Positions 1,672 to 37,460 of a DNA stretch of 64,000 bases are shown piece by piece (position 1 is the stretch's first letter; the number at the start of each line of letters is the position of its first letter). Under the pieces are notes generated by a model. That model saw nothing but the letters and a program-made list of their open reading frames with translations. It ran no database searches and had not been told where the DNA came from. The DNA is from a virus (Duplodnaviria > Heunggongvirae > Uroviricota > Caudoviricetes), in IMG/VR virus record IMGVR_UViG_3300028454_001165, positions 1 through 64,000 of that record; one strand, 5' to 3'. The position numbers and the translations under genes were made by a program.

Positions 1672-1696
1672 CGCGTGAATTTCACCTTGTATAATG
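1672..1696 (+). promoter_or_regulatory. first copy of the conserved CGCG-N16-TAATG promoter-like motif
   Basis: cgcg tgaatttcaccttgta TAATGaaa. Same architecture as 13 other copies (see findings). Precedes the first phage-like small gene. Confidence 0.45.
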
Positions 1697-1724
1697 AAAC
1701 CGAATTTAATCGAGGTGAAAGGGC

Positions 1725-1931
1725 ATGACGAAATTTGAGGAAATCGGAGTCGACAGACAGTACGAGGCTCTCAACGCTTGGCAGGCAAAGAAGCAACTGG
1801 AACTCAGCTGCAAACTATGCTGTGAACGAGGATTGAGAATCATGTGCGACAGCTGTCAGATTCAGACGGCACACAATATCGTGATGGACATGAAATTCCC
1901 GAAAGATCGGAGAAGGGATGAGGAGGCGTGA
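1725..1931 (+). CDS. hypothetical small Cys-containing protein (68 aa)
   Basis: GAGGTGA RBS 8 nt upstream of ATG, preceded by the promoter-like motif. CxxC-like cysteines. Confidence 0.5.
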   Translation: MTKFEEIGVDRQYEALNAWQAKKQLELSCKLCCERGLRIMCDSCQIQTAHNIVMDMKFPKDRRRDEEA

Positions 1932-2128
1932 TTGCCTTCTTCTCTCTTTTTTTACGCGAAATTTGCATCGGCTATAATGAAAGGGCACTAGTGTATGTAT
2001 GGTAGCACGCCTCCTAAAACGGACGGGGGAAGGATGGGTTCAAATCCCATTGCCTTTTTCTTTTATTTTCTGCACGCGGGTGATGATAATCCGTGCTAAA
2101 ATGGCATCTGAAAGAAAGGGGGATTCAT

Positions 2129-2350
2129 GTGATTTGGTTCTATGTCTGTCTGACAATTGCAGTCAGCGGCTTTCTGGGATTTGCATTCGGCAAATTTGTT
2201 CAACGAGAGCGAGCAAAAGTCTATGGCACGTTGAACGTCGTCCATTGGTCTGGCAGAGGAGATGATCTCTTACTCCAGTTAGATCATGACACTTCTGACT
2301 TGAGCGACGGCCAATATATCACGCTATATGTAAAATGCACGCGGAGATAA
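2129..2350 (+). CDS. hypothetical small membrane protein (GTG start, 74 aa)
   Basis: AAGGGGG 6 nt upstream of GTG 2129. N-terminal hydrophobic helix. The 2093 GTG alternative lacks an RBS. Confidence 0.3.
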   Translation: MIWFYVCLTIAVSGFLGFAFGKFVQRERAKVYGTLNVVHWSGRGDDLLLQLDHDTSDLSDGQYITLYVKCTRR

Positions 2351-2392
2351 CATCTGATATAATGGACTCAATATACTGAAAGGGGTATACAG

Positions 2393-2890
2393 ATGGAGAA
2401 CGAGAAAAGCAATGCTGAACTGCTTGAGGAGGAACTGAAACGCCAGTTGGAAGAACTGAAGACGCTTCCCGTTGGATCGGAAGGATCGAAGGCCATCCTC
2501 GACGACATGCTGGACCTTTCCAAGGTCGCATCCGAATGGAAGAAACTGGAAATCGAAGCGGACAAAGCGAAAGCGGAGCTCGAACTTGCAGTCAGGAAGC
2601 ACGAAGACGAACGGGCACTTGAAGCGCAGAAAGCTGAGCGCGAACAGGCCAAGTTCGAAGCGGAGCGGAAGGCAAAAGAGAATGAGCATCGTGAAGCTTC
2701 AAAGCAGAGGTGGACCGCGGCAATTCTGCAGGGTGTAGGCTTTGGCGTCAGCATCGGTCTTGCGGCAATGAGCAGACGAGAGACACGCGAACTTCTGGGA
2801 ACCGTCCTGAAGTTTGAAGAATCTGGCAATTACGTCAGTTCCGCGGCAGGAAAGAGCTTACTTGGAAGCATCTTTAGAATCAGAAAATGA
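2393..2890 (+). CDS. hypothetical coiled-coil protein with C-terminal TM segment (165 aa)
   Basis: RBS GAAAGGGG. Glu/Lys-rich heptad-like region, then hydrophobic stretch ILQGVGFGVSIGLAAM. Confidence 0.55.
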   Translation: MENEKSNAELLEEELKRQLEELKTLPVGSEGSKAILDDMLDLSKVASEWKKLEIEADKAKAELELAVRKHEDERALEAQKAEREQAKFEAERKAKENEHREASKQRWTAAILQGVGFGVSIGLAAMSRRETRELLGTVLKFEESGNYVSSAAGKSLLGSIFRIRK

Positions 2891-3027
2891 GATCCCATGG
2901 GAGGGAGGTACACGCTGAGCAAGCGTTGCCTCTTTCTTTTTTTTTCTTCGCGTAGATTACACCCCTCTTAATGGAGAAAAGAGCTCTTTGCTCCGAAGCT
3001 ATTTTATAGTAAAGGAGAACAGAGATC

Positions 3028-3282
3028 ATGAGTGTTTTCAACGAAAAGAGGTGGCTCGCCTTTGAGACGGGCAAATTCATCTGCGCGAAATGCGGTGAAG
3101 AGATGATCTTCGAGGATGAGTGGGAAGAAAACCTCCTGTGCCCGAAATGCGGTTACAGAGTTACCGCTGAAAAATACGGGTTTGACAGTGAAGAAGAATA
3201 CGAGGCAGTCTATCCCATAATCGAGATCACCGATTTACCCGAACAGAAGGACTCTGAAAAAGAGTCACCGAAAACTGAATGA
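3028..3282 (+). CDS. zinc-ribbon protein (84 aa)
   Basis: RBS AAAGGAGAA. Two CxxC pairs (CAKCG...CPKCG). Acidic C-terminus. Confidence 0.6.
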   Translation: MSVFNEKRWLAFETGKFICAKCGEEMIFEDEWEENLLCPKCGYRVTAEKYGFDSEEEYEAVYPIIEITDLPEQKDSEKESPKTE

Positions 3283-3695
3283 TCAGAACGGAGGGAGGCC
3301 AGCGATGGTTTCCCTCTTTTCTTTTGTCTATCAAAATGAGGTATTATAGCATAGAGCCATATTTGTACAGGCAGGCATTCGGAGAGATCTACGCTTGTAA
3401 TCATCCGATTTATAACAGCTGCACCCTCTATCGGATCGGAGAAAAAGGACTGGCTGTGATTCAACAGCGGTTTGATAGTGAAACGAAGCAGACATATTGG
3501 GGAGAGATCGACGGCTGGATTGCGAACGCTCTTTATCTTGAGCCAAAATTCCACGCCTATCTTCGGAAGCGGGCGGGCAGACCCACAGAAGGCCTATATC
3601 CAACGGCAACTGTACGCCAGGCAATGTGGGCAGCAAGAATGAAGCCGCTCAGAAAGGAACGATGGGAAACCGTGTTTGACCGGCAGGATATTTAA
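3279..3695 (+). CDS. hypothetical protein (138 aa)
   Basis: ATGA start/stop overlap with upstream gene (translational coupling). No recognisable domain. Confidence 0.4.
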   Translation: MIRTEGGQRWFPSFLLSIKMRYYSIEPYLYRQAFGEIYACNHPIYNSCTLYRIGEKGLAVIQQRFDSETKQTYWGEIDGWIANALYLEPKFHAYLRKRAGRPTEGLYPTATVRQAMWAARMKPLRKERWETVFDRQDI

Positions 3696-3756
3696 CGCGG
3701 AATTTTCATAGGGTATAATGGGAAAACTATTTTCTCAAAAGGAAGGAGAGAGTAAT

Positions 3757-4110
3757 ATGAGTATAGACAAAGCGAAAGACTGGTGCCGAGAAAAAGCGGA
3801 CAAGGTCAAGAAGGAAGCGGATTACCAGATTTGGAGACTGGAGGAATGGGCGAAGAATAACCCGGAACAAGCGGCTACAATCGCTGCGACCGCAATCGGC
3901 GCTGTCGGTTTTATCACAAGAAAAGCGATCAAGGCAGGCCAACTGCGGAAGGAGATGAGGCTGAAGGATCGGTATATCTACGACCGTTCGCTCGGTAGCT
4001 ACTGGATGCTGAGACGCAAGCCGACGCAGACCGAAATGCTGAAGATCGAGCGCATGAGAAAAGCGGGGATGTCCTACGGAGATATTCTAACATCTTTGAG
4101 ATTACTGTGA
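3757..4110 (+). CDS. hypothetical protein (117 aa; alternative start 3718)
   Basis: AAGGAAGGAGAG RBS 6 nt upstream of ATG 3757. Promoter-like motif at 3696-3720. Confidence 0.5.
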   Translation: MSIDKAKDWCREKADKVKKEADYQIWRLEEWAKNNPEQAATIAATAIGAVGFITRKAIKAGQLRKEMRLKDRYIYDRSLGSYWMLRRKPTQTEMLKIERMRKAGMSYGDILTSLRLL

Positions 4111-4209
4111 CCCAGAAGAGAGAGAGAGAACCGAACAGGTTCTTTTCTCTTTTGCCGCGAAGATTGCATGGCTCTTAATGGAATAACGACAGTTTCAGGA
4201 GGTATGAGA

Positions 4210-4287: not shown

Positions 4288-4363
4288 GACCGGGGGATGA
4301 GCACCATGAACAGGTGCTTTTCCTTTTTTTTTTATATTCAATTTGAAAGGAGGTTGCAGGCAT

Positions 4364-4762: not shown

Positions 4763-4921
4763 GAAATCACCTCGTATGATATTTGGATTTGCCTATCGGC
4801 GGAGGCATTATACCAAAACGGAGAAGAATTGTCAAGAGGATTCTAAAGGATTTGACGCGAAATCTACATCTATAATAATGGAAAACTCGCCAACAAAGAG
4901 TATCTATGAAAGGAAAAGGAT

Positions 4922-5170
4922 ATGGACGAATTGAGAGTGTCAAGTAAATTGATGAATCATTTGATGTCTAAGTTCATCCGTCACAAGATCAGGAAACACT
5001 GCGGGCAGACAATAAACGTTGTGTTTAACCAGATTGTTGCGACGATCAAGGACGGAGACAAAGTCAAGATTCACTTGGAACTGGATGCGGATATGAATAC
5101 GGCCGACTTCGAGAAAATGATCACGAAGGCTCTTGGCCTTGGCGGAGATAAGGAGAACGAGGAGGCATAA
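4922..5170 (+). CDS. hypothetical protein (82 aa)
   Basis: RBS GGAAAAGGA. Promoter-like motif at 4856-4880 with an overlapping 18-codon uORF. Confidence 0.5.
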   Translation: MDELRVSSKLMNHLMSKFIRHKIRKHCGQTINVVFNQIVATIKDGDKVKIHLELDADMNTADFEKMITKALGLGGDKENEEA

Positions 5171-5278: not shown

Positions 5279-6025
5279 ATGAGCAAAGCAAAAAATCTGA
5301 TCCGGAAGATCCTTCCGACGGTATTGACTGTCATAGGAGCCGGAGCAACTGTCGCAGCAACTGTGCTCGCGGCAAAAGAGGGGCCAAAATTTGAAAGGGC
5401 TCTTAAAGAAAAGGAGATGACGGCAAAGGAAAAGATTGTCGCGGGAGTGAAGATCTTTGCACCGGCGGCCGGATGCGCTGCGGTTTCAATTGCCTGTACT
5501 GTCGGCGCGCATTGCATGGATCTTCACACGCAGGCCTCTATTACGGGCGCATATATCGCCGTTCAGGAGGCTTATAAGAAGTACCGGGCCAAAAATGAGG
5601 AACTGAACGGTCCGGAAGCAGACCAGAAAATCCTCACAGAGATCATGACGGAAGAAGTCCCGGAAGAGATCCGCGAAAGGATTGGCAACGAACCAATGCT
5701 GAAATTCCATGATTCCGTCAGCGGTCAGGACTTTTACAGTACAATGGCGAATGTGATTCAGGCAGAATACAACGTCAACAAGATGATAACTACACTTGGA
5801 GCGTGCAAGGAGAATGACTGGCTTGAGTTTCTGGATATTGCAAAAGTAGCTGGCGGGGATGATCGCGGATGGTCATCTGATATGCTTTGCGACTTATACA
5901 GCGAATGGTGGCTTGACTTTGCGCATTATCCGTCAGTTGATCTGGATAACGAAGAGACTGTCATCATTGTGCCGGACGTAGATCCGTCAGATGGCTATTT
6001 GAGTAATTACGGCCTCGACTGCTGA
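5279..6025 (+). CDS. membrane protein, paralog family A (249 aa)
   Basis: AAAGGAGA RBS. N-terminal TM segment, Lys/Glu linker, second hydrophobic segment (AGCAAVSIACTVGAH). Architecture shared with the 7130 and 8565 genes. Confidence 0.6.
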   Translation: MSKAKNLIRKILPTVLTVIGAGATVAATVLAAKEGPKFERALKEKEMTAKEKIVAGVKIFAPAAGCAAVSIACTVGAHCMDLHTQASITGAYIAVQEAYKKYRAKNEELNGPEADQKILTEIMTEEVPEEIRERIGNEPMLKFHDSVSGQDFYSTMANVIQAEYNVNKMITTLGACKENDWLEFLDIAKVAGGDDRGWSSDMLCDLYSEWWLDFAHYPSVDLDNEETVIIVPDVDPSDGYLSNYGLDC

Positions 6026-6459: not shown

Positions 6460-6620
6460 TCTCTGATAGTAAACCGACCCGTGTCATAATTCAGCAAAGC
6501 ATATACAAACCCATTCTGAATCGGTTTCCGGCCTTGCTGAAGATGCGGGTCGGATATTTGATTCTGCAATATTTGACGCGAAATAATCATGCGGTTTAAT
6601 GAAAGGGAGGTGTTTTACCT

Positions 6621-11012: not shown

Positions 11013-14000
11013 TGGCAGACTTCTTCAAAGTATTCACACGGTCGCCGAAGCGAGGACATGTTGAAATCTACCCGGAGTTTATTATCCGCAGCCCAAGCCA
11101 GGATCTGATGATCAAAGGCGGAGACTTCTATGCGGTCTGGGTCGAAGAACGCGGGCTTTGGTCCACAAGCGAACAGGATCTGATCAATCTTGTAGATCGG
11201 GAGCTTTATCAATATGCGGAAGAGTACGAGAAAAACTCGCCAGATGACATCGTGCATGTTCTGTGCATGAAGTATTCCTCCACCGGAACTACGGATCGAT
11301 GGCATAAGTATTGCCAGAAGCAGATGCGGGACTCCTATCATCCGCTTGACGAAAAGCTGGTCTTTTCCAATACGGAGGTCTCCAAGAGCGATTATGCTTC
11401 AAAGAGACTTCCGTATCCGCTGGAAGCCGGAGAGTGTCCTTCTTGGGATCAGTTCATGTCCGTTTTATATTCTCCCGAGGAGAGGCACAAAATCGAATGG
11501 GCGATCGGAGCCGTCGTGTCAGGCGATTCAAAGGACATTCAGAAGTTTATGGTGTTCTACGGTGATCCGGGGACCGGGAAATCTACCGTGTTAGACATCA
11601 TCATGCTTCTGTTTGCCGGGCACTACTGCACGTTCGACGCGAAGGCCCTCGGCAATCCGAACAGCACGTTTGCGCTCGAACCGTTCAAAGCCAATCCGCT
11701 TGTGGCGATCCAGCAGGACGGAGATCTCAGCCACATCGAGGATAATACCCGGCTGAACTCCATCGCCTCACACGATGAGATGACGGTGAACGAGAAGCAC
11801 AAGTCTTTATATTCCAACCGGTTCAACTGCTTCATGTTCATGGGCACGAACAAGCCCGTAAAGATCACGGACGCAAAATCCGGTATAATCCGGCGTCTGA
11901 TCGACGTATCGCCGACAGGAAACAAACTGCCGAGACGGGAATACGACAAACTCCGTTCTCAGGTCAAGTTTGAACTCGGAGCGATCGCAAAGCGGTGTCT
12001 GGACATCTATCTCGACGATCCGCATTTTTATGACAATTACATCCCGCTCAAGATGATGGGAGCCTCCAATGACTTCTACAATTATGTTTTGGATTCCTAT
12101 TCGGTATTCGAGCGGGAAGACGGGGTTTCGCAGAAAGCGGCGTGGGAGATGTACCGGACATACTGCGAAGAGGCGCGGGTTCCGTATCCGCTGTCGCTTC
12201 GGGTCTTCAAAGAAGAGCTGAAAAGCTACTTCAAGGAGTTCAAGGAGCGGATCAGCACGGAAGACGGCGGCCGCGTCCGAAACTGGTACGGCGGTTTTCG
12301 AAAAGAGAAATTTGTTCGGGAGGACTTTTCCGAAAAATCTCATGAGAAGACGGATCCTTCCTGCTGGTTCGTTCCGGCTCCGCGAACATCGCTCTTTGAT
12401 ATTTTGGGCGCGGACTATCCTGCCCAATACGCCAGCGAGGAAGGGATACCCAGACGGCGCTGGGTCAATGTTACGACAAAACTGAAAGATCTGGACACAT
12501 CACAGCTTCACTACGTCAAGGTTCCGATCAACCACATTGTGATCGATTTCGATATTCCGGATGAGCACGGCAGCAAAAGCCTCGAAAAGAATCTGGAAGC
12601 GGTATCGCGGTGGCCTCCTACCTACGGAGAGCTGTCGAAAAGCGGGCAGGGCATTCATCTTCATTATATTTATAAGGGAGATCCGAAACAGCTCAGCCAC
12701 GTTTACGACGACCGGATCGAGATCAAGGTGTTTGACGGAAATATGACGCTGAGACGGAAGCTTACGAAGTGCAACGATCTTCAGATAGCAGAGATCAGCT
12801 CAGGTTTACCGCTGAAAGGAGAAGACAAAATGGTAAACACCGAGACTGTGAAGAACGAGAAGGCGATCCGAACTCTGATCAAGAGGAATCTATGCAAGGA
12901 GTATCATCCCGGAACGAAGCCGAGCGTGGATTTCATCAAGAAGATTCTGGACGACGCCTATTCCAGCGGCGTGCGCTATGACGTGAGCGACATGTTCAAT
13001 CCCGTGCTGGCCTTTGCCACGAACAGCACGCATCACGCCGAATACTGCACGAAGCTGGTTTCCGAGATGCACTTCCGCTCTGAGGAGGAACCGACGCCGG
13101 GATTCCTCGAAAAAGTCGAAAATATGGGCAAAAATGATATTTTGATATTTTTCGACGTGGAGGTTTTCAAGAATCTTTTCGTGATCTGTTGGAAAGCTGC
13201 CGGGGCGGATCAACCGATCATGAAGATGATCAATCCGACGCCGAAGGAAGTGGAGGCTCTGACAAGGTGGAAGCTGATCGGATTCAACTGCCGTCAGTAC
13301 GACAACCATATTCTCTATGCGAGAATCATGGGGTACACGAACGAGCAGCTCTACAATCTGTCACAGTCCATTATCGGCTCGGAGAAAGGAAATCGGAACC
13401 GGGGCATGTTCGGCAACGCCTACAACTTATCCTATACGGATATTCTGGACTTCTCGTCTGAGAAAAAATCCCTGAAGAAATTTGAGATCGATCTCGGGAT
13501 TCACCATCAGGAGCTCGGTTTCGAATGGGATCAGCCTGTTTCGGAGGAGTTGTGGGAAAAGGTCGCCGAGTATTGCGCGAACGACGTGATCGCAACGGAA
13601 GCGGTCTGGAACGCACGGCAGGCGGATTTTATGGCGCGGCAGATTCAGGTGGAGCTTGTCAAGGCTTTGCACGGGATTACGGGCGTTTCGGTCAATGACA
13701 CGACAAACTCCCTGTCGGAGAAGATCATATTCGGCACGGAGAAAAATCCTCAGCGGCAGTTCAATTACCGCGATCTCTCAAAACCGGTTCCATGGACGGA
13801 ATATACGGAATACCGGAAGCGATTCGGAGACAGGTATACGTTCCATGTCTTCGACGACCACGGCCTTCCGACGTATGAAATCTACACCGGCGAGGGATGC
13901 GTCGTCCTGCCTGACGGATATTCCATTCTCCCATTCTTTCCCGGATATACGTTTGAGTTCGGTAAATCTGTGTATATGGGAGAGGAGATAGGAGAAGGAG

Positions 14001-15813: not shown

Positions 15814-15847
15814 CGCGCGGATTACTTGTAATATAATGGAGTAATCC
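15814..15847 (+). promoter_or_regulatory. CGCG-N16-TAATGG motif embedded in a 7-bp inverted repeat (GGATTAC...GTAATCC)
   Basis: cgcg cggattacttgtaata TAATGGagtaatcc. Possible operator around the -10-like element. Heads a 390-nt leader before the 16205 gene. Confidence 0.4.
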
Positions 15848-16204
15848 ACATTTATATTTTTGAGAGGTGCTTACGGATAAAAAGCGAATACGCTTGACGG
15901 GCTTTACCCTCGGATCAACAAGGACAAGAATATCGTGTACCTGCCAAATGGAATTTGGGCGGACTGGAGTCGATACGAAAAATGTCGAAGATGCGATCGA
16001 CTATTTCAATGACACCAAGTACGTTGAAAATCTTGGGATCGGCATCGGCATGATTTTAGGATCTGTATTGAGGGACTGCTCTCATCGTTCACAGATTCAA
16101 GAAGCACGGCAAGGAAAAGCATGAGGAATCCAAAGAGAGCGGGGAGGCGGCTGAATAAGCCCCTCTTCCTCTTTTTGGTATTGATTTTGAAAAGGAGAAA
16201 AGTT

Positions 16205-21129: not shown

Positions 21130-22359
21130 ATGGACATACAGAAAGCAATGTCCGCTGCTGACGGGCTCGACGCATACCAGATCGATGCGATAAATCAAAT
21201 GAAGAACGGCTGTATTCTCTGCGGCGGCGTCGGTTCCGGGAAATCCCGGACTGCTCTTGGATATTACTATAAAGACTTTGAGCAGATCCGGGAGAGGAGC
21301 GGACACGAAATGCCGCTTATCATTATCACGACCGCGAAGAAGCGCGATACGGGGGAATGGCAGGAGGAATGCAGACTGTTCGGGATTCCTTTCACCGGTG
21401 ATCTGATCGTTGACTCGTGGAATAATATCGGAAAATACGTCGGCGAGATCGGCGCGTTTTTTATATTCGATGAGCAGCGGGTCGTCGGCAGCGGGGCATG
21501 GGTCAAATCTTTTCTGAAAATCGTCCGGGCCAACCGATGGATCCTTCTGTCGGCTACGCCCGGCGATACATGGAAGGACTATATACCGGTCTTCATCGCC
21601 AATGGGTTTTACAAGAATCGGACTGAATTTACCCGTGAGCACATCGTCTACTCCCAGTTCACAAATTTTCCGAAGATCGATCGATACCTTGAGACGGCAA
21701 AGCTCATGCGGCTGCGGGATTCCATTCTCGTTCGGATGGACTATGTCAAGCACACGAAGGACAGACATGAGGACATCTGGTGCCAGTATGATATTCCGGG
21801 GTACCGGTCGATCATGCGGAATATGTGGAACCCGTGGACGGACGAACCGATCGATACGGCGGGAGCGCTATGCTATGCGCTGAGAAGAATCTGCTATTCG
21901 GACAAATCGCGTCTGGAGGCGCTTCAAAAGCTGCTTGGCATTCATCCGAAAGCAATTATATTTTACAATTATGATTTTGAACTTGATCTTCTGCGGGTAT
22001 TCTGTACGGAACACGGGATCGTCTGGGGAGAATGCAATGGCCACCGGCACGACGAGGTTCCCATGGGTGACCGATGGGTCTACCTTGTGAACTTCCAGAG
22101 CGGAGCCGAAGGATGGAACTGTATTGCCACGGACACATTGATATTCTATTCCGAGAACTATTCTTACCGGATCATGCAGCAGGCGGCCGGACGGATTGAC
22201 AGACGGAACACGCCGTTTGATATTTTGTACTACTATCACCTGAAGTCCCATTCGTCAATCGAATTGACGATCATGCGGACGCTGAGGGACAAGAAGGATT
22301 TCAACGAAGGCGGGTTCTACCGAAAAATCGCGGGATCGCGGGAAAAACATGGTTCTTAA
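21130..22359 (+). CDS. SF2 (DEAD/DEAH-like) helicase (409 aa; alternative start 21121)
   Basis: Walker A CGGVGSGKS. DEAD-like IFDEQR. Motif III LLSATPG. Motif VI QQAAGRIDR. Confidence 0.7.
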   Translation: MDIQKAMSAADGLDAYQIDAINQMKNGCILCGGVGSGKSRTALGYYYKDFEQIRERSGHEMPLIIITTAKKRDTGEWQEECRLFGIPFTGDLIVDSWNNIGKYVGEIGAFFIFDEQRVVGSGAWVKSFLKIVRANRWILLSATPGDTWKDYIPVFIANGFYKNRTEFTREHIVYSQFTNFPKIDRYLETAKLMRLRDSILVRMDYVKHTKDRHEDIWCQYDIPGYRSIMRNMWNPWTDEPIDTAGALCYALRRICYSDKSRLEALQKLLGIHPKAIIFYNYDFELDLLRVFCTEHGIVWGECNGHRHDEVPMGDRWVYLVNFQSGAEGWNCIATDTLIFYSENYSYRIMQQAAGRIDRRNTPFDILYYYHLKSHSSIELTIMRTLRDKKDFNEGGFYRKIAGSREKHGS

Positions 22360-22391
22360 TGGAAATCATATTTTTCCGAAGGAGAAAGAAA

Positions 22392-23000: not shown

Positions 23001-23072
23001 TATTTTCGGGACGCGAAAAAACCATGTCTCTTAATGGATAACTATTCTACAATCCACAAAGGAGACAAAAAC

Positions 23073-23633
23073 ATGAGGAATACGGTGAAAGAATTTTCCG
23101 ACCTGTTTTCATTGGTCAGCAGACTGATCGATTGCGTCAGCGGAGCGTTATTACGGACGCTTACCGCGATTGTGATCATCGGGAAGCTGTTCGTGAAACC
23201 GGTGGAGATTGCGATCGGCATTCTCAGGGATTTCGAGGCCAGAAGGGAAGAGAGAAGGTTAAAGAAAGCGAAGAGGAACGAGTCCGCAATGGGCTCCTCC
23301 TCTCCTTTTTTTGTGAAAGGAGAACACATGAAAGAAAAGGAAACCGCCATTATGATCCGCGCAAAATCCCCGACGATTATGCACCCGGAGAGACTTGACG
23401 ATATGAAGGCCATACTCCGGGAGCAGATCGCGGAGAAATACAAATGCGAAGAGATGATCAGCCATACGTATGAAGAAGGGCAATCCCGAATAATTCGTTT
23501 CTATATCTGCCGCAAAGGGGGACTCAAAAACAGTCTCCGGTACAGGTTGGAAAAAGATCTGGCGCGAATGAAGCGGCAATGGCTTCCGATGACCGGATAT
23601 GCGGTAATGATCGCAAGCGGGGCAAAACAATAA
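23073..23633 (+). CDS. hypothetical protein (186 aa; possibly two genes, internal RBS+ATG at 23328)
   Basis: CAAAGGAGACAAAAAC RBS before ATG 23073. A second AAAGGAGAACAC-ATG at 23328 is in the same frame without an intervening stop. Confidence 0.4.
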   Translation: MRNTVKEFSDLFSLVSRLIDCVSGALLRTLTAIVIIGKLFVKPVEIAIGILRDFEARREERRLKKAKRNESAMGSSSPFFVKGEHMKEKETAIMIRAKSPTIMHPERLDDMKAILREQIAEKYKCEEMISHTYEEGQSRIIRFYICRKGGLKNSLRYRLEKDLARMKRQWLPMTGYAVMIASGAKQ

Positions 23634-30841: not shown

Positions 30842-30916
30842 TATTTGAGGCTGCGCGAAAAATACATCTTTCTTAATGGATAACTATCCGAAAAATTTCC
30901 ATTGAGGAGATTCGAT

Positions 30917-33447: not shown

Positions 33448-34098
33448 ATGTTCTGCAAGAAATCTGGGTATATCTCAGAATGGCCCGAAAACCTGATCGA
33501 GGAAATCCTTGAAAAGACCGTAGAGGAGCCTCTGACCGGCTGGCAGATCGACGGGCTGGAATGGATCCTCGGAAATCTGAACAAGAGAACGGGCGACATG
33601 ATCCGATACAAATTCAAGGACGGACTCACGCTGGAGGAGATCTCCGGCATCTTCGGCGTCGGGAAGGAAAGAGTCCGGCAGATCATCGCAAGAGGGATCC
33701 GGCTGATGCGGCATCCGTCGCGGACTGTTTATCTTTTGAAGGACTACAAGACCGTGACCGCCGACTACGAAGCGGAGCTTGCCCGGCTGACGCAGGAGAT
33801 CGGCGAACGTGAGGTGGAACTCGACCGGCTTGTGAAAAAGATCGCGGAGCTGAGCGAGAAGGCGGAAACGCTTGAGCCTGCGGCTTCGAGAGCGCAAAAC
33901 GCGGCTTTGCGTCTTCCAATCATCGATATGGATCTGAGCGCGCGGGCATACAACTCCCTTATTCGATGCGGAATGGATACGATCGAAGATGTTGTAAAGC
34001 GGTGGGGTGAAGATGAGCTGCACGGAATACGGAACTGCGGGGCGGTATCACGCGAAGAAATCCGGAGAAAGCTCATATCGTTTGGCGTACTGAATTGA
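33448..34098 (+). CDS. sigma-70 region-4-like HTH fused to an RNA polymerase alpha-subunit C-terminal-domain-like module (217 aa)
   Basis: LTLEEISGIFGVGKERVRQIIARGIRLMRH matches the sigma70 region 4.2 consensus. After a coiled-coil linker, IIDMDLSARAYNSLIRCGMDTIEDVVKRWGEDELHGIRNCGAVSREEIRRKL aligns to E. coli RpoA alpha-CTD ([48 protein letters not shown]). Confidence 0.6.
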   Translation: MFCKKSGYISEWPENLIEEILEKTVEEPLTGWQIDGLEWILGNLNKRTGDMIRYKFKDGLTLEEISGIFGVGKERVRQIIARGIRLMRHPSRTVYLLKDYKTVTADYEAELARLTQEIGEREVELDRLVKKIAELSEKAETLEPAASRAQNAALRLPIIDMDLSARAYNSLIRCGMDTIEDVVKRWGEDELHGIRNCGAVSREEIRRKLISFGVLN

Positions 34099-34131
34099 CA
34101 TTTGCAAGTAATCGTGGGGGGGGGTATCACG

Positions 34132-34761: not shown

Positions 34762-35379
34762 ATGGGAAAGTTTCTTGCCGGGTGTGCGGTCGGGTTCGCC
34801 GGGGCTTCGGTTCTTGCGGCTGCGGCGGCGAAAAAGATATTTGAAGACGAGACTTTCGGCTATGCTCTTCGGTCGAGCATTGTCATGAAGGCGACCGGAT
34901 TCATCCGCGATCTTGTTTACGGGCGAGAGAGACTGAGAAAACGGCAATACTGTGAATACGTCGACTATTCGCGGGACGGGCGCGGGCACGGCTCATCCTG
35001 GCCGGGCGTGGAAACCGTCAAGGAGAAAGAAACCGATAAGGAAAAGCCGCATTCGGTGTTTCAGAAGTTTGATATTCTCGGACTGGAGGCGCTGTATTCC
35101 GAGGAGCGGGGAGAGCTCGAGGCTGAAGCGCAGGGGCTTGGATATACCGAAGGCGAGGACTTTTATATTTACTGGCTGCGCGGAGGAAAGGGCGACGATC
35201 CGGGCGAGATCGCTTCGGTCGAGCAGGCCTTTGTCGCGGTGAACTATGTTGCGACGGTCATGACGAAGGAGCCGATCTCATTCCCGGAAGGACGGAACTG
35301 GATGGATCTCTCGGAGAACGACTGGGGATTCCTGTCCGACGAGGGTGACATCACGGTATTTGAGTTTTTGGGGGATTGA
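34762..35379 (+). CDS. hypothetical protein with N-terminal hydrophobic segment (205 aa)
   Basis: GAAAGGGG RBS after a TTGATATTT junction. Stop inside the next TTGATATTT. Confidence 0.5.
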   Translation: MGKFLAGCAVGFAGASVLAAAAAKKIFEDETFGYALRSSIVMKATGFIRDLVYGRERLRKRQYCEYVDYSRDGRGHGSSWPGVETVKEKETDKEKPHSVFQKFDILGLEALYSEERGELEAEAQGLGYTEGEDFYIYWLRGGKGDDPGEIASVEQAFVAVNYVATVMTKEPISFPEGRNWMDLSENDWGFLSDEGDITVFEFLGD

Positions 35380-35436
35380 TATTTTCGCCGCGGTGTGGTA
35401 TAATGGATCTGCGATCCGAAAGAAAGGAGAAACGGT

Positions 35437-35703
35437 ATGCCTGAGTTGAGCAGGTTCGGCGGCATGGTGATCTATATGCTGTTCTATGACGTAAAGAAGC
35501 ACCATAAGCCGCATGTGCACGTGTATTACGGAGACTATGAGGCAACGGTCGCGATCGACGGGGAGCTTCTTGCCGGGGCTCTGCCGAGAAAGCAGCTGAA
35601 GATCGTCACGGGCTGGCTGGCGTTTTACGAAGAAGAGGCCTACAAGGCTTGGAATCTGGCGGTGCGGGGTGAGCACTTCGAGCAGATCCCGCCGATGAAC
35701 TGA
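35437..35703 (+). CDS. DUF4160-family protein (88 aa)
   Basis: HHKPHVHVYYGDYEA matches the H-x-PHFHV signature I recall for DUF4160. Partner DUF2442-like gene immediately downstream. Confidence 0.5.
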   Translation: MPELSRFGGMVIYMLFYDVKKHHKPHVHVYYGDYEATVAIDGELLAGALPRKQLKIVTGWLAFYEEEAYKAWNLAVRGEHFEQIPPMN

Positions 35704-35712
35704 GGTGAAAGC

Positions 35713-36009
35713 ATGTATATCGTGAATGATATTTGTTATGCCGGAGAGCTTGTCGAGGACATCCGGGTGACGGAGGTCAAACCTCTGCGGGGACGGATGA
35801 TGCTCGTGACGTTCTCCACGGGGGAGAAGCGTTTGTTCGACACGACGCTTCTGAAGGGCTCTGCGTTCGAGCCGCTGAAGGATGAAAAGATCTTCATGGC
35901 TCCGGTCCTGTTCCACGGGGTCATCACATGGAACAACGGGGAAATCGACATCGCGCCGGAGACGGTTTATGTCGAGAGCTACCCATATGAGGAGGCCGCC
36001 GTCGTTTGA
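35713..36009 (+). CDS. DUF2442-family protein (98 aa)
   Basis: Typical DUF2442 size and pattern (IRVTEVKPL....LVTFSTGEKRLFD). Canonical two-gene pairing with DUF4160. Confidence 0.5.
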   Translation: MYIVNDICYAGELVEDIRVTEVKPLRGRMMLVTFSTGEKRLFDTTLLKGSAFEPLKDEKIFMAPVLFHGVITWNNGEIDIAPETVYVESYPYEEAAVV

Positions 36010-36225
36010 TATTAACGGCAAAGGGTGACGGGAAAAGAGAAACGGGGTCGTGCGATTTGCATGGCCTCTTTCTTTTTGCCGCGCAGATTGATATTTATAG
36101 ACTTGTTTAGGAGATCGGGGGGGGGACTTGAGGTTGATTTGGCGAACTTTTGCGGGCGGTTTTCTATCTTAAGATAGTTCTCGAGGGATGCGAGATTGAT
36201 ATTTTGTACTTTTTAGGAGACGATT

Positions 36226-36480
36226 TTACTGGCCAATTTTATAGTTGTAAAAGTGGGCTTTGCCCACCCAAAATGCAGAAAATAATTAGTTTAACAAACT
36301 AACTGTCCGGAAAAAGTGGGCAACTGGCCACTTTTTTTTCAAAGTTGGCCAGCTGAAAACCGTTGTCTTTATTGGGTTTGAGGCTTCTCTGGCCAATTGG
36401 CCAACTTTTTTTTAATATTTCCGCGAAACGAAAAAATTCGTTTTTATATAATATAGAGAAAAAACTGGGCAAGTTGGCCA
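36226..36480 (+). repeat. iteron cluster: six TGGCCA copies (one as the 14-bp palindrome TGGCCAATTGGCCA) plus GTGGGCtttGCCCAC and AAGTGG...CCACTT palindromes and an AT-rich core
   Basis: TGGCCA at 36230, 36325, 36346, 36390, 36398, 36475. AT-rich 36404-36460 containing AACGAAaaaaTTCGTT. No ORF with RBS. Confidence 0.6.
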
Positions 36481-36594
36481 GCGTGGATTTTGAGGCTGTT
36501 TTCACAAGAAAAAGCGCGGCGGAGAGTCCGGTCGCGTTGATTGATATTTTCGGAGATTGAGGGGGGGGGGATGAACGCTTTCGTCGGACTGCGA

Positions 36595-36619
36595 CGCGAA
36601 AAAAACATGGGTCTTAATG
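36595..36619 (+). promoter_or_regulatory. CGCG-N16-TAATGG motif (copy identical to 37224-37248)
   Basis: gcgaCGCGaaaaaaacatgggtctTAATGGagaacatccaaaattactga, 46 nt identical to the downstream cassette. Confidence 0.45.
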
Positions 36620-36663
36620 GAGAACATCCAAAATTACTGATTTTTCAAAAGGAGTTTAGAACT

Positions 36664-36912
36664 ATGGCAAAGATCAATGCGAAGGAAATCGGAATGGCGT
36701 GCCTGACCGGTGCGAAGAAGATCTGGAAGCCTTTAACGGGCGTTATGATCGCTGCGGGAGCGGTGATCGGAACGTACCTGCTGGGGAAAAAAGAACTCGA
36801 CGCGGAGGAGGCGGCGGAAAACGAGAACCTGCTCGCGGACGGAGCTGAAGAAGAAACGACTGACGAAGAAAGCAACGAGGAAGAATCCGAAGAGGAGGAC
36901 GACGCTGAATAA
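36664..36912 (+). CDS. small TM protein with poly-acidic tail (82 aa)
   Basis: AAAAGGAGTTTAGAACT RBS. TM GVMIAAGAVIGTYLL. Tail ...EEESEEEDDAE. The last codons and terminator are duplicated at 37435-37475. Confidence 0.5.
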   Translation: MAKINAKEIGMACLTGAKKIWKPLTGVMIAAGAVIGTYLLGKKELDAEEAAENENLLADGAEEETTDEESNEEESEEEDDAE

Positions 36913-36937
36913 GCGTCCCCTCTTTCTTTTTTTTTTT
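36895..36937 (+). terminator. terminator hairpin GACGC-tgaataa-GCGTC + T-run (duplicated at 37443-37479)
   Basis: Stop codon TAA sits in the loop. T10 run follows. Confidence 0.5.
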
Positions 36938-36959
36938 GTGTGAGGATTGATATTTTTTG

Positions 36960-37175
36960 TTACTTTGAACGATGTTCTCTTTCGGACTTTTTTCGGAGGA
37001 GTTTTACGGCCTTCGCGACGGTAAGCCCGATCGATACCGCTATTCCGGCGGTGATGATTTTTTCGTTTGTGTTCAATTGGTTATAGGCGGCGTTCATGCT
37101 TCCGTATCCCCGCTTCATTTCTTTGGTAATCTGGGCGGCGTTCAGCTTTTTGCTCACGTCGGTCTCTCCGGGCAT
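36960..37175 (-). CDS. putative - strand membrane protein (71 aa)
   Basis: TATAAT -10-like element 13 nt upstream on the - strand, but no SD. TM helix IITAGIAVSIGLTVAKAV. Uncertain. Confidence 0.25.
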   Translation of the reverse strand: MPGETDVSKKLNAAQITKEMKRGYGSMNAAYNQLNTNEKIITAGIAVSIGLTVAKAVKLLRKKSEREHRSK

Positions 37176-37235
37176 TGATATTTACATGATTATATCATAG
37201 ACACGGAATAAATGCAAGGACAGCGCGAAAAAAAC

Positions 37236-37460
37236 ATGGGTCTTAATGGAGAACATCCAAAATTACTGAATGAAGGAGAAATAGAGATAAAAAGCTTGAA
37301 AAGTATCGTGCTTGGGAGTATCGGAGGCTTGGTGGGCGGGTTTACCGTTCTGCTATGGCTCTGGAGCAGACCGGACACGCTGACGGATGAGCTGAATGAA
37401 ATTCGCTCTGACATCAAAGCTTTGGAGGAATCCAAAAAGACGGAGGACGACGCTGAATAA
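37236..37460 (+). CDS. small TM protein with acidic C-terminus (about 75 aa; start ambiguous)
   Basis: Shares 5' flank and 3' end (EDDAE* plus terminator) with the 36664 cassette. TM helix IVLGSIGGLVGGFTVLLWLW. No clean RBS-ATG; the start may be the ATG inside the promoter-like motif or a downstream TTG/GTG. Confidence 0.3.
   Translation: MGLNGEHPKLLNEGEIEIKSLKSIVLGSIGGLVGGFTVLLWLWSRPDTLTDELNEIRSDIKALEESKKTEDDAE

What the first reader, a model, noticed from the sequence alone, without database searches (positions are those of the whole stretch)
1672..37248. Promoter-like consensus CGCG-N16-TAATGG(A) with exact spacing upstream of at least 14 genes, unlike a sigma70 -35/-10
Copies: 1672-1696, 1955-1979, 2949-2973, 3696-3720, 4156-4180, 4856-4880, 6577-6601, 15814-15838, 22337-22361, 23012-23036, 30854-30878, 36595-36619, 37224-37248, plus a degenerate copy near 35388. 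All have CGCG, exactly 16 nt (A-tract then xCAT), and a (T/c)TTAATGG / TATAATG -10-like element. No TTGACA-like hexamer sits at 17-nt spacing. The two - strand peptide genes at 38050 and 38660 instead carry textbook TTGCAA-N17-TATAAT and TGcTAAAAT promoters. The host therefore appears to use canonical promoters while the cassette genes use a distinct signal. The A-tract resembles an UP element, which is interesting given the alpha-CTD-like module in the 33448 protein. The ATGG of the motif often opens a tiny uORF (MENIQNY* twice, MDNYPKNFH*, MEKRALCSEAIL*, ME*).
Basis: seen in the sequence. Interest (0 to 1): 0.8.

Follow-up and report, generated by a model that had tools for sequence, protein, structure and literature searches.

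The report
Promoters for a phage-encoded RNA polymerase
A 27-base signal repeated 18 times in front of the early genes of a gut-bacterium prophage is a real, widely conserved promoter, and its layout suggests it is read by the phage's own unusual RNA polymerase rather than by the host's enzyme.

Summary
The motif is real. There are 18 copies of CGCG-RRR-WWW-n-CAT-N4-YW-TAATGGA. All lie on the gene strand, all are intergenic, all fall within 1672-38374, and none lies in the structural-gene half.

The window is a Ruminococcaceae prophage related to Faecalibacterium phage FP_oengus. The same grammar, CGC(G/A)-N6-(T)ACA-N5-TWTWAT-G/A-R with identical spacing, recurs in hundreds of related gut phage contigs (204 copies on the gene strand, 5 on the other). 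It also occurs in isolated phages of Faecalibacterium, Lactococcus, Gordonia, Arthrobacter and Streptomyces.

All of these phages encode one signature protein, here at 39909-42668. It is a 919-aa putative single-chain two-barrel RNA polymerase with an invariant SGADFDGD loop and sigma-region-4-like HTH domains at both ends.

Four kinds of downstream element begin at motif positions 25-30, mostly 25-28: Shine-Dalgarno sequences, a tRNA-like gene, leader terminator hairpins and the Lactococcus extended SD. Transcription therefore most likely starts at the conserved G25. The TATAAT-like box then sits at -6 to -1, which does not fit sigma-70 geometry.

Best reading (about 0.6): a T7-style promoter for the phage polymerase. 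The alpha-CTD/sigma-4 protein is confirmed, but it occurs in only three relatives and is not the general reader. No transcript mapping or biochemistry exists.

The parts
1672..1698 (+). promoter copy, CGCGTGAATTTCACCTTGTATAATGAA; precedes the 68-aa gene at 1725-1931
   Evidence: 28.2 bits
1955..1981 (+). promoter copy; directly abuts the tRNA-like gene
   Evidence: 33.0 bits
1982..2057 (+). tRNA-like RNA gene with a 10-nt anticodon loop and no CCA, followed by a T-run; its acceptor 5' strand starts at motif position 27/28 of copy 1955
   Evidence: Rfam tRNA 22.4 bits, below the gathering score of 29, E 0.0096, full model
   Evidence: 31.1 bits
2949..2975 (+). promoter copy; precedes 3028-3282
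3696..3722 (+). promoter copy; precedes 3757-4110
4156..4182 (+). promoter copy
   Evidence: 36.1 bits
4856..4882 (+). promoter copy; precedes 4922-5170 and the DUF6353 gene at 5279-6025
6577..6603 (+). promoter copy; the SD AAAGGGAGG starts at motif position 26-28 and the start codon is at 6621
15814..15840 (+). promoter copy after the ssDNA-binding gene; precedes the 719-aa gene at 16121-18280
22337..22363 (+). promoter copy; precedes 22392-22604
23012..23038 (+). promoter copy; precedes 23073-23633
30854..30880 (+). promoter copy
   Evidence: 36.7 bits
36595..36621 (+). promoter copy; identical to the 37224 copy, including 20 nt of 5'UTR
37224..37250 (+). promoter copy (duplicate of 36595)
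37521..37547 (+). promoter copy, followed at once by a leader hairpin
   Evidence: 23.6 bits
37545..37577 (+). leader hairpin whose first paired base is motif position 25
   Evidence: -12.9 kcal/mol, z -2.35
38348..38374 (+). promoter copy upstream of the nuclease-exonuclease-RNAP operon; a copy at this relative position is conserved in 68/76 related prophages
   Evidence: (19.6 bits)
38372..38426 (+). leader terminator-like hairpin; pairing starts at motif position 25 (G)
   Evidence: -23.2 kcal/mol, z -3.7, 0/200 shuffles
39909..42668 (+). putative single-chain two-barrel RNA polymerase, 919 aa; it has an SGADFDGD catalytic loop and sigma-r4/LuxR-type HTH domains at about residues 80-170 and 880-918; proposed reader of the motif
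   Evidence: HTH Pfam hits; phrog_4291, full length, E=0; sequence; invariant columns; aligns to the E. coli beta' NADFDGD loop; Pfam RdRP is the top hit in 4/4 family members

Best explanation
The 27-nt motif is the promoter used for the early and middle (DNA-metabolism) genes of an FP_oengus-like prophage. It is most likely recognised by the phage's own RNA polymerase, the 919-aa protein at 39909-42668, and not by host sigma-A holoenzyme.

Proposed layout, numbered from the first C of CGCG:
- Transcription starts at the conserved purine G25.
- The AT-rich T(A/T)T(A/T)AT box occupies -6 to -1 and serves as the melting region.
- The (T)ACA box lies at about -14 to -12.
- The CGC(G/A) box lies at -24 to -21, roughly one helical turn from the ACA box, so the two boxes would face about the same side of the helix.

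The two upstream boxes are inferred to be read by the sigma-region-4/LuxR-type helix-turn-helix domains fused to the polymerase's N and C termini. That would act as a built-in specificity module, and the overall arrangement resembles a T7-type promoter that runs from upstream contacts through +1 to +3.

A special copy about 1 kb upstream of the polymerase gene fires straight into a terminator-like leader hairpin. This suggests an attenuated, self-reinforcing switch for polymerase expression.

What is shown:
- the motif, its conservation and its strand and position rules;
- its co-occurrence with the polymerase gene across two phyla;
- downstream elements that begin at positions 25-30.

What is inferred:
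- the start site;
- which enzyme reads the motif;
- the role of the HTH domains;
- the attenuator logic.
For: 1. The motif is real and is restricted to the gene strand and to intergenic sites.

2. It is conserved across the family.
- In 80 IMG/VR loci chosen only for a related primase-polymerase, there are 204 copies on the gene strand and 5 on the other. The unselected positions C12, A13 and A5/A7 are conserved.
- In 80 prophage loci from GTDB species there are 126 copies on the gene strand and 0 on the other.

3. The same spacing and boxes occur in isolated phages from hosts of two phyla, all of which carry the polymerase.
- FP_oengus: 14 copies.
- Lactococcus 1706: 10 copies, with TATAGTAG.
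- Gordonia Secretariat: 9 copies.
- Arthrobacter Gordon: 8 copies, and Streptomyces GirlPower: 8 copies.

4. Each phage has its own near-uniform 3' half: TATTATGAG x10 in L087, CTTAATGGA here, CTTTATGAA in L103. Promoters of phage-encoded polymerases behave this way.

5. Start-site constraints.
- Of 252 unique copies with a downstream SD and start codon, the SD begins at position 28 in 43, at 29 in 14 and at 25-27 in 13. Start codons pile up at 41-45.
- The tRNA-like acceptor stems start at 27-30 and show compensatory variants.
- Leader terminator hairpins start at position 28 in 30/72 and at 25-30 in 53/72. In the window both start at position 25.
- In phage 1706 the extended SD AGAAAGAAGG starts at position 25.
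- A sigma-70 -10 at 19-24 would place the start at about 30-33.

6. Polymerase identity.
- SGADFDGD is invariant in 17 sequences down to 40% identity.
- Pfam RdRP (PF05183) is the top hit for the core of 4/4 members, over the same profile columns (E from 0.11 down to 2.4e-5).
- The best hhalign match to E. coli beta' is the NADFDGD loop.
- The protein matches PHROG 4291 over its full length.
- Koert et al. (bioRxiv 10.1101/842583) report an HHpred probability of 95.7% to RdRP for the FP_oengus homologue.

7. A motif copy lies 930-1370 nt upstream of the polymerase gene in 68/76 prophages.
Against: - No 5'-end mapping, rifampicin test or in vitro transcription exists for any member of this family. 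The start site is inferred only from what lies downstream.
- The polymerase gene itself lies behind a copy of the motif. A prophage cannot rely on a virion-delivered enzyme, so host RNAP must start the cascade somewhere. I found no convincing plus-strand host-type promoter upstream of the operon in the window.
- The box at 19-24 is TATAAT-like. It is a perfect TATAAT in the actinophages. Four window copies read as TTGACG-16-TATAAT-type promoters. Host sigma-A binding, or dual use, is therefore not excluded, and in actinophages the SD position does not rule out a start at about 31.
- Structural genes carry no copy, whereas the one characterised single-chain phage enzyme of this general kind, YonO, transcribes late genes (PMC5467207).
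Confidence: 0.6

Rival explanations
1. Host sigma-A RNA polymerase reads the TWTWAT box as a -10 element. A conserved phage-encoded activator bound to the CGCR and ACA boxes replaces -35 recognition, as MotA/AsiA does at T4 middle promoters. The DFDGD/HTH protein could itself be that DNA-binding activator rather than a polymerase.
For: - There is a TATAAT-like hexamer with a G/GA discriminator.
- CGCG lies 14 nt upstream of the hexamer, a MotA-box-like position.
- Some copies pass a sigma-70 scan.
- The 919-aa protein has strong HTH hits and is annotated only as an HTH protein in most records.
- This reading avoids the kick-start problem for prophage induction.
Against: - SDs, tRNA-like acceptor stems and leader hairpins begin at positions 25-30, inside the region a sigma-70 open complex would place upstream of +1.
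- The A at hexamer position 2, the most critical -10 base, is present in only about half of the copies (8/17 in the window, 73/155 in the family).
- Conservation runs through G25-A27 and the 3' half is phage-specific.
- The invariant SGADFDGD loop and the RdRP hits would be unexplained in a pure DNA-binding activator.
Confidence: 0.22
2. These are ordinary host sigma-A promoters, and the conserved CGCR and ACA boxes are operators for a prophage repressor that silences all early promoters in the lysogen.
For: - The window is an integrated prophage.
- A repressor acting on many promoters would explain the identical upstream boxes.
- The hexamer is TATAAT-like.
Against: - The same boxes occur in phages described as lytic or virulent, without integrase or repressor: Gordonia cluster DJ (PMC9671010) and Lactococcus 1706.
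- The start-site geometry argues against it, as above.
- There is no -35 element, and the boxes are not palindromic.
Confidence: 0.06
3. The sigma-4/alpha-CTD fusion protein (33448-34098) is the specificity factor for the motif: its sigma-4 HTH reads CGCG and its alpha-CTD reads the A-tract.
For: - Both domains are confirmed (Sigma70_r4 E 4e-10, RNA_pol_A_CTD E 2e-13).
- CGCG followed by an A-tract is a plausible bipartite site.
- The relative L001 has both the protein and the motif.
Against: - Only 3 relatives were found among 5.8 billion proteins, and none in IMG/VR.
- tblastn finds it in 2 of about 200 related loci, although about 100 of those loci cover the corresponding region upstream of the polymerase gene.
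- The motif is present in FP_oengus, 1706 and the actinophages, where I found no such protein.
Confidence: 0.04
4. The motif is not a promoter but an RNA-level signal, such as a processing site that creates mature 5' ends at positions 25-28.
For: Downstream elements begin at a sharply defined position. Endonucleolytic processing could produce the same picture.
Against: - Copies usually follow a terminator-like hairpin and T-run, so there is often no upstream transcript to process.
- The motif has no conserved secondary structure.
- It has a bipartite DNA-like architecture with fixed spacing and an AT-rich box before a purine.
- The stand-alone units (promoter, tRNA-like gene, T-run) fit transcription units.
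Confidence: 0.04

Closest known systems
T7-group promoters (T7, T3, SP6; about 23 bp, -17 to +6) read by the phage's single-subunit RNA polymerase
   Same: - Many near-identical copies, about 17-18 per genome.
- Contiguous conservation that runs through the start site.
- An AT-rich stretch immediately upstream of a purine start.
- Lineage-specific sequence variants.
- Placement in front of DNA-metabolism genes.
   Different: - The enzyme here is not a T7-like (Pol I-fold) polymerase. No such domain was found in the proteins scanned. The candidate is a beta'/RdRP-like two-barrel protein with fused HTH domains.
- The motif is bipartite or tripartite, with variable spacers.
- The start site is inferred, not mapped.
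Thermus phage P23-45: two single-subunit two-barrel RNAPs (TMP-fused gp96 and gp64), each with its own promoter motif (Nat Commun 2024, PMC10770324)
   Same: - A siphovirus.
- DFDGD-type two-barrel enzymes with almost no sequence similarity to cellular RNAP.
- Conserved motifs directly upstream of start sites of early genes.
- The motif is present only where the enzyme is present.
   Different: - There the start sites were mapped by ONT-cappable-seq and occupancy by ChIP-seq. Here nothing is mapped.
- The motif sequences differ (that paper describes one AT-rich and one GC-rich motif).
- The enzyme here carries sigma-4-type HTH domains.
- This family includes temperate members, and I found no evidence of a virion-borne copy.
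YonO of Bacillus prophage SPbeta (Forrest et al. 2017, PMC5467207)
   Same: - A single-chain, beta'-like DxDGD RNA polymerase encoded by a Firmicutes prophage.
- Its promoter and any cofactor requirements are explicitly stated to be unknown.
   Different: - No detectable sequence similarity to YonO.
- YonO drives one late operon from a single start site. Here the motif precedes 18 early or middle units and no structural gene.
T4 middle promoters (MotA box at about -30 plus a sigma-70 -10; sigma appropriation). This comparison is from my own knowledge.
   Same: - No -35 element.
- A phage-specific box a fixed distance upstream of a TATAAT-like hexamer.
   Different: - The inferred start lies 1 nt, not 7 nt, after the hexamer.
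- No MotA or AsiA homologue was seen in the scans I ran.
- There is an extra ACA box, and conservation continues past the hexamer.
The 50-bp intergenic motif noted in Gordonia cluster DJ phage Vardy (Microbiol Resour Announc 2022, PMC9671010)
   Same: Probably the actinophage version of the same element. I found CGCA-N6-TACA-N5-TATAATGAGACCCC in another cluster DJ-type phage, Secretariat.
   Different: - That note reports 5 copies in one genome.
- It interprets the TATAAT as a sigma-70 -10.
- It does not link the motif to the polymerase-like gene or to Firmicutes phages.

Membership tests
sigma-70 / sigma-A housekeeping promoter | -10 hexamer TATAAT with A at position 2 and T at position 6 | tested here: inconclusive
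   T(A/T)T(A/T)AT lies at positions 19-24. T6 is invariant (though it was part of the search pattern). A2 is present in only 8/17 window copies and 73/155 family copies.
sigma-70 / sigma-A housekeeping promoter | -35 hexamer TTGACA-like, 16-18 bp upstream of the -10 | tested here: not met
   The positions that would hold it (-4 to +2 in motif numbering) carry at most 0.5 bit, apart from the C1 and G2 fixed by the pattern. Only 4 of 18 copies pass a 4/6 hexamer scan, and all of those have a 16-nt spacer.
sigma-70 / sigma-A housekeeping promoter | transcription start 6-8 nt downstream of the -10 hexamer | tested here: not met
   This is an indirect test. SDs start at position 28 (43 copies) or 25-29 (71 of 252). 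tRNA-like acceptor stems start at 27-30. Leader hairpins start at 25-30 in 53/72, and at 25 in both window leaders. A sigma-70 start would be at 30-33.
T7-type single-subunit RNAP promoter | one contiguous conserved block reaching +1 to +3, with an AT-rich segment just before a purine start | tested here: met
   Conservation runs from position 1 to 27. The TWTWAT box is directly followed by G25 (146/155) and then purines. The start site itself is inferred.
T7-type single-subunit RNAP promoter | a cognate T7-like (Pol I-fold) RNA polymerase gene in the same genome | tested here: not met
   No such Pfam or PHROG hit appeared among the proteins scanned. Not every small ORF of the late region was scanned.
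phage single-chain two-barrel RNAPs and their promoters (P23-45 gp64/gp96, crAss-like gp66, YonO) | the phage encodes a protein with a DxDGD catalytic loop in a beta'/RdRP-like double-psi barrel | tested here: met
   SGADFDGD is invariant. Pfam RdRP PF05183 is the top hit in 4/4 members, all just below the gathering score (the best scores 23.7 against a cut-off of 23.8 bits). The best alignment to E. coli beta' is the NADFDGD loop. The fold itself was not confirmed, because the AF2 model was poor.
phage single-chain two-barrel RNAPs and their promoters (P23-45 gp64/gp96, crAss-like gp66, YonO) | the motif co-occurs with the enzyme and is absent from relatives that lack it | tested here: inconclusive
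   Co-occurrence holds in every lineage examined. No relative lacking the gene was found, so the negative half could not be tested.
phage single-chain two-barrel RNAPs and their promoters (P23-45 gp64/gp96, crAss-like gp66, YonO) | rifampicin-resistant, enzyme-dependent initiation at the motif | not testable with these tools
   This needs infection or induction experiments, or in vitro transcription.
YonO family specifically | detectable sequence homology to SPbeta YonO | tested here: not met
   hhalign of 15- and 17-sequence family profiles against YonO gave probabilities of 0.4% or less, with no match at the catalytic loop. tblastn against 50,697 phage records returned no Bacillus phage among the ten organism groups it named (two further groups were not named).
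T4 MotA-type middle promoter | activator box replacing -35, a normal sigma-70 -10 and start site, and MotA/AsiA-like proteins | tested here: not met
   The box position relative to the hexamer is compatible. The start-site geometry is not. No MotA or AsiA family hit appeared in the scans I ran.
UP element read by an alpha-CTD | an A/T tract upstream of the -35 (about -40 to -60), with the alpha-CTD-bearing reader present wherever the element occurs | tested here: not met
   The A/T tract lies between CGCG and CAT, inside the promoter. The alpha-CTD protein is found in only 2 of about 200 related loci and has 3 relatives overall.

The most novel reading that the evidence does not exclude
The 919-aa protein is a self-sufficient, sigma-independent RNA polymerase. 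Its fused sigma-4-type HTH domains read the CGCR and ACA boxes, and it starts at G25.

This would be the first defined promoter for a very large, mostly mis-annotated lineage of two-barrel phage polymerases. More than 8000 homologues are labelled 'HTH protein', and 251 isolated phages carry one.

Because the same promoter grammar works in phages of Actinobacteria and Firmicutes, polymerase plus 27-bp promoter would be a compact, host-independent transcription module. It would also be a living example of a minimal RNAP with promoter recognition built into the catalytic chain.
Probability: 0.4. Interest if true: 0.85.

Novelty: new variant of a known kind. Interest (0 to 1): 0.72.

Why it matters
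Single-chain relatives of cellular RNA polymerase (YonO, crAss-like gp66, P23-45 gp64/gp96) are studied as models of a minimal or ancestral transcription enzyme. How they find promoters is largely open. The YonO paper states that its promoter and cofactor needs are unknown.

This finding links a sharply defined 27-bp motif to one such lineage. That lineage is abundant in human-gut Firmicutes prophages and also occurs in cultivable, genetically tractable phages of Lactococcus, Arthrobacter, Gordonia and Streptomyces. The question therefore becomes directly testable: one purified protein, one 60-bp template, one TSS-mapping experiment.

It would also correct the annotation of thousands of 'helix-turn-helix proteins'. 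It would explain the architecture of the early regions of these phages, where each unit is a terminator, a promoter and a small gene. It may also yield an orthogonal expression system for Gram-positive bacteria.

If the host polymerase turns out to read the motif after all, the finding reduces to an unusual activator-dependent promoter class. That would be of narrower interest.

Tried and rejected
- **Near-identical phages:** megablast of 50 kb against INPHARED found nothing useful. The only hit was an aaRS fragment.
- **RNA genes in the window:** Rfam at gathering threshold and ARAGORN found nothing. The tRNA-like gene appears only below the gathering score.
- **sigma4/alpha-CTD protein as a probe in IMG/VR:** no relatives.
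- **Lactococcus 1706 orf47 ('positive regulator of sigma'):** unrelated to it.
- **First strict regex:** it had an off-by-one error and returned 0. It was replaced by the looser pattern and by later patterns.
- **Exact CGCG pattern in 1706 and Secretariat:** it failed. k-mer counting then revealed their own versions.
- **Profile comparisons of the polymerase:** no signal against YonO or against PDB sequences.
- **First leader-hairpin analysis:** it cut the sequences at T-runs inside loops. It was redone.
- **tRNA-like genes in the actinophage and 1706 loci scanned:** none by ARAGORN, and none by Rfam in the one Arthrobacter phage Gordon region tested.
- **Host DNA for a genome-wide control:** only about 1 kb more of host flank (S41 peptidase, greA, aaRS) could be reached.
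- **Literature:** searches for the motif strings and for promoter descriptions in these clusters found only the Vardy note.

Full report
**Observation**

The pattern CGCG-N16-TAATGG, allowing at most one mismatch, occurs 18 times in the window: 17 on the + strand and 1 on the - strand. One hundred dinucleotide-preserving shuffles gave 4.5 +/- 2.1 matches, with a maximum of 11.

It adds copies at 2340, 29790, 33132, 37521 and 38348.

Positions that were not part of the search pattern are conserved too. C12 is 17/17, A13 16/17, T14 15/17 and A27 15/17. Positions 6-7 hold only purines, and positions 8-10 hold almost only A/T.

The window consensus is CGCG-RRR-WWW-n-CAT-N4-YW-TAATGGA. A weight matrix gives 19.6-36.7 bits for the 18 sites and at most 13.5 bits for anything else on either strand. 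No site lies between 38375 and 64000.

All copies are intergenic and co-directional with the genes. Many sit directly after a terminator-like hairpin and T-run.

**What the window is**

- Positions 1-1506 encode the end of a host class II aminoacyl-tRNA synthetase. In another assembly it follows greA and an S41 peptidase gene.
- From 1672 onward the DNA is a prophage with essentially all genes on the + strand.
- The region up to about 38 kb holds many small genes, three DUF6353 genes, a DUF5906 primase-helicase-polymerase (11108-15208), an ssDNA-binding protein, an SPFH protein, a helicase and other genes.
- Next come a nuclease, an exonuclease (DUF2800/PD-(D/E)XK) and a 919-aa gene (39909-42668).
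- After that come the large terminase, the capsid gene and a tape measure gene that runs off the end of the window.
- An identical copy of the 919-aa protein is recorded from a 543-kb contig of a Ruminococcaceae MAG.
- Gene order matches Faecalibacterium phage FP_oengus.

**The motif is a family trait**

I fetched 80 IMG/VR loci solely because they encode a relative of the primase-polymerase (58-64% identity). In these, CGCG-N16-[TC][AT]AT[GA] occurs 204 times on the gene strand and 5 times on the other, over 1.58 Mb.

The logo of 155 unique sites is ttCGCGAAAwwwACA-N5-TWTWATGaaa. The unselected C12 (141/155) and A13 (139/155) are conserved.

In 80 prophage loci from GTDB species (Lachnospiraceae, Oscillospiraceae, Ruminococcus, Blautia, Hungatella and others), a generalised pattern occurs 126 times on the gene strand and never on the other.

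**Link to the 919-aa gene**

This protein matches PHROG 4291 over its full length (E=0; the PHROG is labelled 'RNA-dependent RNA polymerase'). It has sigma-region-4/LuxR/HTH_23-type helix-turn-helix hits at about residues 80-170 and 880-918, and it contains GADFDGD.

Full-length relatives (37-49% identity) occur in 251 isolated phages. These infect Arthrobacter, Gordonia, Streptomyces, Curtobacterium, Microbacterium, Rhodococcus, Lactococcus and Faecalibacterium. In the actinophages the gene is usually the last large gene before the right genome end.

More than 8000 homologues exist in the protein collection. The few that carry a name are called 'helix-turn-helix' proteins or transcriptional regulators.

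Koert et al. (bioRxiv 10.1101/842583) called it a putative RNA polymerase and the signature gene of an Actinobacteria/Firmicutes phage supercluster. Their text contains no mention of promoters.

I then looked for the motif in those isolated phages. All have it, with identical spacing:

| Phage | Motif | Copies |
|---|---|---|
| FP_oengus | gaCGCGAAAAAWnCAGnnTGCTTTATGGA | 14 |
| Lactococcus 1706 | sCAYnTTTTACAYAYRCTATAGTAGAAAG | 10 |
| Gordonia Secretariat | CGCAnnnATTACAYGCCYTATAATGAG | 9 |
| Arthrobacter Gordon | CGCAAGAATTACAnnnnTTATAATGA | 8 |
| Streptomyces GirlPower | CGCAWnWWTTACAnGnCCTATAATGAGACCCC | 8 |

Each phage keeps its own near-uniform 3' half.

In 68 of 76 prophages, a copy sits 930-1370 nt upstream of the polymerase gene and fires into a leader hairpin with a T-run. 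The window's 38348 copy is that one. Secretariat has an equivalent, TGCACGGAATACATGCGCTATAATAGA followed by a hairpin.

**Where transcription starts**

Nothing is mapped, but four kinds of downstream element set an upper bound.

- (i) Of 252 unique motif copies with an SD and a start codon, the SD begins at motif position 28 in 43, at 29 in 14 and at 25-27 in 13. Start codons pile up at positions 41-45. With the preceding GAA, the SD reads GAAAGGAGG, which by my knowledge of the Firmicutes 16S rRNA 3' end is an extended anti-16S match.
- (ii) A tRNA-like gene directly abuts the motif in the 17 unique cases parsed, the window included (1982-2057; Rfam tRNA 22.4 bits, below the gathering score). 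It has an odd anticodon loop, no CCA, and a T-run right after the acceptor 3' strand. The acceptor 5' strand starts at position 27-30, and the stems differ by compensatory changes, e.g. AAACAGT:GCTGTTT, AATAGGT:GCCTATT and AAGGGCA:TGCCTTT.
- (iii) The terminator-like leader hairpins start at position 28 in 30 of 72 unique leaders and at 25-30 in 53 of 72. In the window both leaders pair from position 25 (-23.2 kcal/mol, z -3.7; and -12.9 kcal/mol, z -2.35).
- (iv) In phage 1706 the SD AGAAAGAAGG starts at position 25.

A sigma-70-type open complex using 19-24 as its -10 would start at about 30-33 (established promoter geometry). That would cut into all of these elements.

The simplest reading is a start at the conserved purine G25 (146/155). 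The AT-rich box then lies at -6 to -1, ACA at about -14 to -12 and CGCR at -24 to -21.

**Is the 919-aa protein a polymerase?**

Evidence in favour:
- SGADFDGD and flanking residues are invariant in 17 sequences down to 40% identity.
- Pfam RdRP (PF05183, the QDE-1-type two-barrel family) is the top hit for the core region of all four members tested, over the same profile columns. E-values are 0.11 (window), 0.0011 (FP_oengus), 0.02 (Secretariat) and 2.4e-5 (1706).
- The single best hhalign match between the family profile and E. coli beta' aligns AVGINAKVAERLSGADFDGDTVMV-IPL with [27 protein letters not shown].

Evidence lacking:
- There is no detectable similarity to SPbeta YonO or to PDB sequences.
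- My structure model was too poor to use.

I therefore call it a putative two-barrel RNA polymerase. I do not file it as a YonO-family member.

**The alpha-CTD/sigma-4 protein**

The 216-aa product of 33448-34098 does combine Sigma70_r4 (E 4e-10) and RNA_pol_A_CTD (E 2e-13).

It has only three relatives in the protein collection and none in IMG/VR. It is found in 2 of about 200 related loci, although about 100 of those loci cover the corresponding region upstream of the polymerase gene. It cannot be the general reader of a motif that spans two phyla. It may be a lineage-specific accessory, possibly aimed at host transcription. That last point is speculation.

**Mechanism proposed**

The motif is the promoter of the phage's own polymerase. 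Upstream boxes are read by the enzyme's fused HTH domains. The AT-rich box melts, and synthesis begins at G25.

Early and DNA-metabolism units are each bracketed by a promoter and a terminator. The polymerase operon has its own copy, followed by a leader terminator, which suggests attenuated positive feedback.

Weak points:
- How the cascade is first triggered in a lysogen is unknown. I found no clear host-type plus-strand promoter upstream of the operon in the window. Secretariat does have TTGACG-17-TAATGT-like sequences upstream of its operon.
- How the structural genes are transcribed is also unknown, since no copy of the motif lies there.

**Rivals**

- A MotA-like scheme, in which host sigma-A reads the hexamer and a phage activator sits on the boxes, remains the main alternative (about 0.2). 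It solves the kick-start problem and fits the TATAAT-like hexamer and the four sigma-70-like copies. It conflicts with the start-site bounds, with the poorly conserved A at hexamer position 2 and with the catalytic-loop conservation.
- Repressor operators, the alpha-CTD protein as reader, and an RNA-processing signal are each unlikely, for the reasons given in the rival entries.

**Comparison with known systems and novelty**

In working principle, the nearest systems are T7-type promoters and the two promoter classes of the P23-45 two-barrel polymerases (PMC10770324).

The actinophage version of the motif was noticed once, in a genome announcement for Gordonia phage Vardy. It was described there as a 50-bp repeat containing a sigma-70 -10 (PMC9671010). 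The main Arthrobacter phage paper mentions neither promoters nor a polymerase.

In the library I could search, I found no paper that links the motif to the polymerase gene, defines its cross-phylum grammar, or addresses its start site. I rate it a new variant of a known kind: phage-polymerase-specific promoters, attached here to an uncharacterised and very abundant polymerase lineage.

**Limits**

All functional statements are inferences from sequence. The start site, the identity of the reading enzyme and the polymerase activity itself need experiments.

Noticed in passing
window 10537-39824 (27 copies of ATTGATATT, e.g. 15228, 27565, 34382, 34736, 35375, 39167, 39761, 39816); also L001, L109, L111: There is a second strongly strand-specific motif.
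- ATTGATATT occurs 27 times on + and once on -, against 0.75 expected.
- Its core GATATTT occurs 52 vs 3 times in the window, 56 vs 1 in 19.8 kb of L001, and 42 vs 1 in FP_oengus.
- Gordonia Secretariat has CATATTT, 28 vs 0.
- It often overlaps the stop codon of one gene and lies 1-5 nt before the SD of the next, including just before the polymerase gene. It also occurs inside ORFs.
- In the 36-38.5 kb non-coding stretch it precedes promoter copies by 16-55 nt.

Its function is unknown. Candidates are a minimal second-class promoter, a pause or processing site, or a Chi-like polar signal.
   Followed up: partly
window 1982-2057; L003:2427-2503, L109:2935-3006, L020:1472-1543 and others: A tRNA-like gene forms a stand-alone unit of promoter, RNA and T-run. 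It has an enlarged or odd anticodon loop (10 nt in the window), no CCA and a canonical T-arm. It is conserved in the early region of many related gut phages. It is probably not a decoding tRNA, and its role is unknown.
   Followed up: partly
window 33448-34098: A 216-aa protein fuses a sigma-70 region 4 domain, a coiled-coil linker and an RNA polymerase alpha C-terminal domain. Only 3 relatives are known. It could mimic or compete with host RNAP modules, but this was not investigated further.
   Followed up: partly
window 37826-37598 (-), 38195-38050 (-), 4835-4481 (-), about 38867-38660 (-): Minus-strand genes with canonical or near-canonical sigma-A promoters sit inside the otherwise plus-strand prophage.
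- A 34-aa helical, basic peptide (37750-37646) has a perfect TTGACA-17-TGnTATAAT promoter and its own terminator.
- A 28-aa hydrophobic peptide (38136-38050) has the sequence MTELIGIIMLVLSLIQTVVAVLNYISRR and looks like a type I toxin.
- A 93-aa protein lies at 4762-4481.
- A 35/54-aa hydrophobic peptide ends at 38660.

These are probably expressed in the lysogen. The first two flank the control region upstream of the polymerase operon.
   Followed up: partly
window 36595-36925 vs 37224-37473: Two neighbouring cassettes share an identical promoter, 20 nt of 5'UTR and an identical terminator (GACGCTGAATAAGCGTC followed by a T-rich tail). They encode different small proteins. This looks like module exchange at promoter and terminator boundaries.
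   Followed up: no
window 34116-34124, 36117-36125, 36561-36570, 37511-37519 (G runs); 38310-38318, 47618-47630 (C runs): There are homopolymer runs of 9-13 G or C. Three lie just upstream of promoter copies or next to ATTGATATT. They could be slippage-prone switches, structural elements or assembly artefacts.
   Followed up: no
L087, L088, L091, L093, L098, L101, L103, L105, L108, L001; actinophage records: In many independent assemblies the contig ends 300-700 nt after the polymerase gene. In isolated actinophages the gene is the last large gene before the right cohesive end. In the window it is followed by structural genes, as expected if the prophage is joined through the virion ends.
   Followed up: no
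window 35375-36009: A host-type promoter, TTGATA-17-TGgTATAAT, drives a pair of small genes (35437-35703 and 35713-36009). From my reading of the sequences these look like a DUF4160/DUF2442 pair. They would be a likely moron expressed from the prophage. They were not scanned against Pfam.
   Followed up: no
L112:3600-4090 (Lactococcus 1706) and L111:44880-45215 (Gordonia Secretariat): The non-coding stretch upstream of the polymerase operon carries other repeats. In 1706 it is CTATCACGAAAAAACTTCGGGAAAACTTCGGGATT, three times. In Secretariat it is AATCTTGACGAATCTGA, two or three times, and includes TTGACG-17-TAATGT. These are possible host-type promoters or operators that start polymerase expression.
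   Followed up: no
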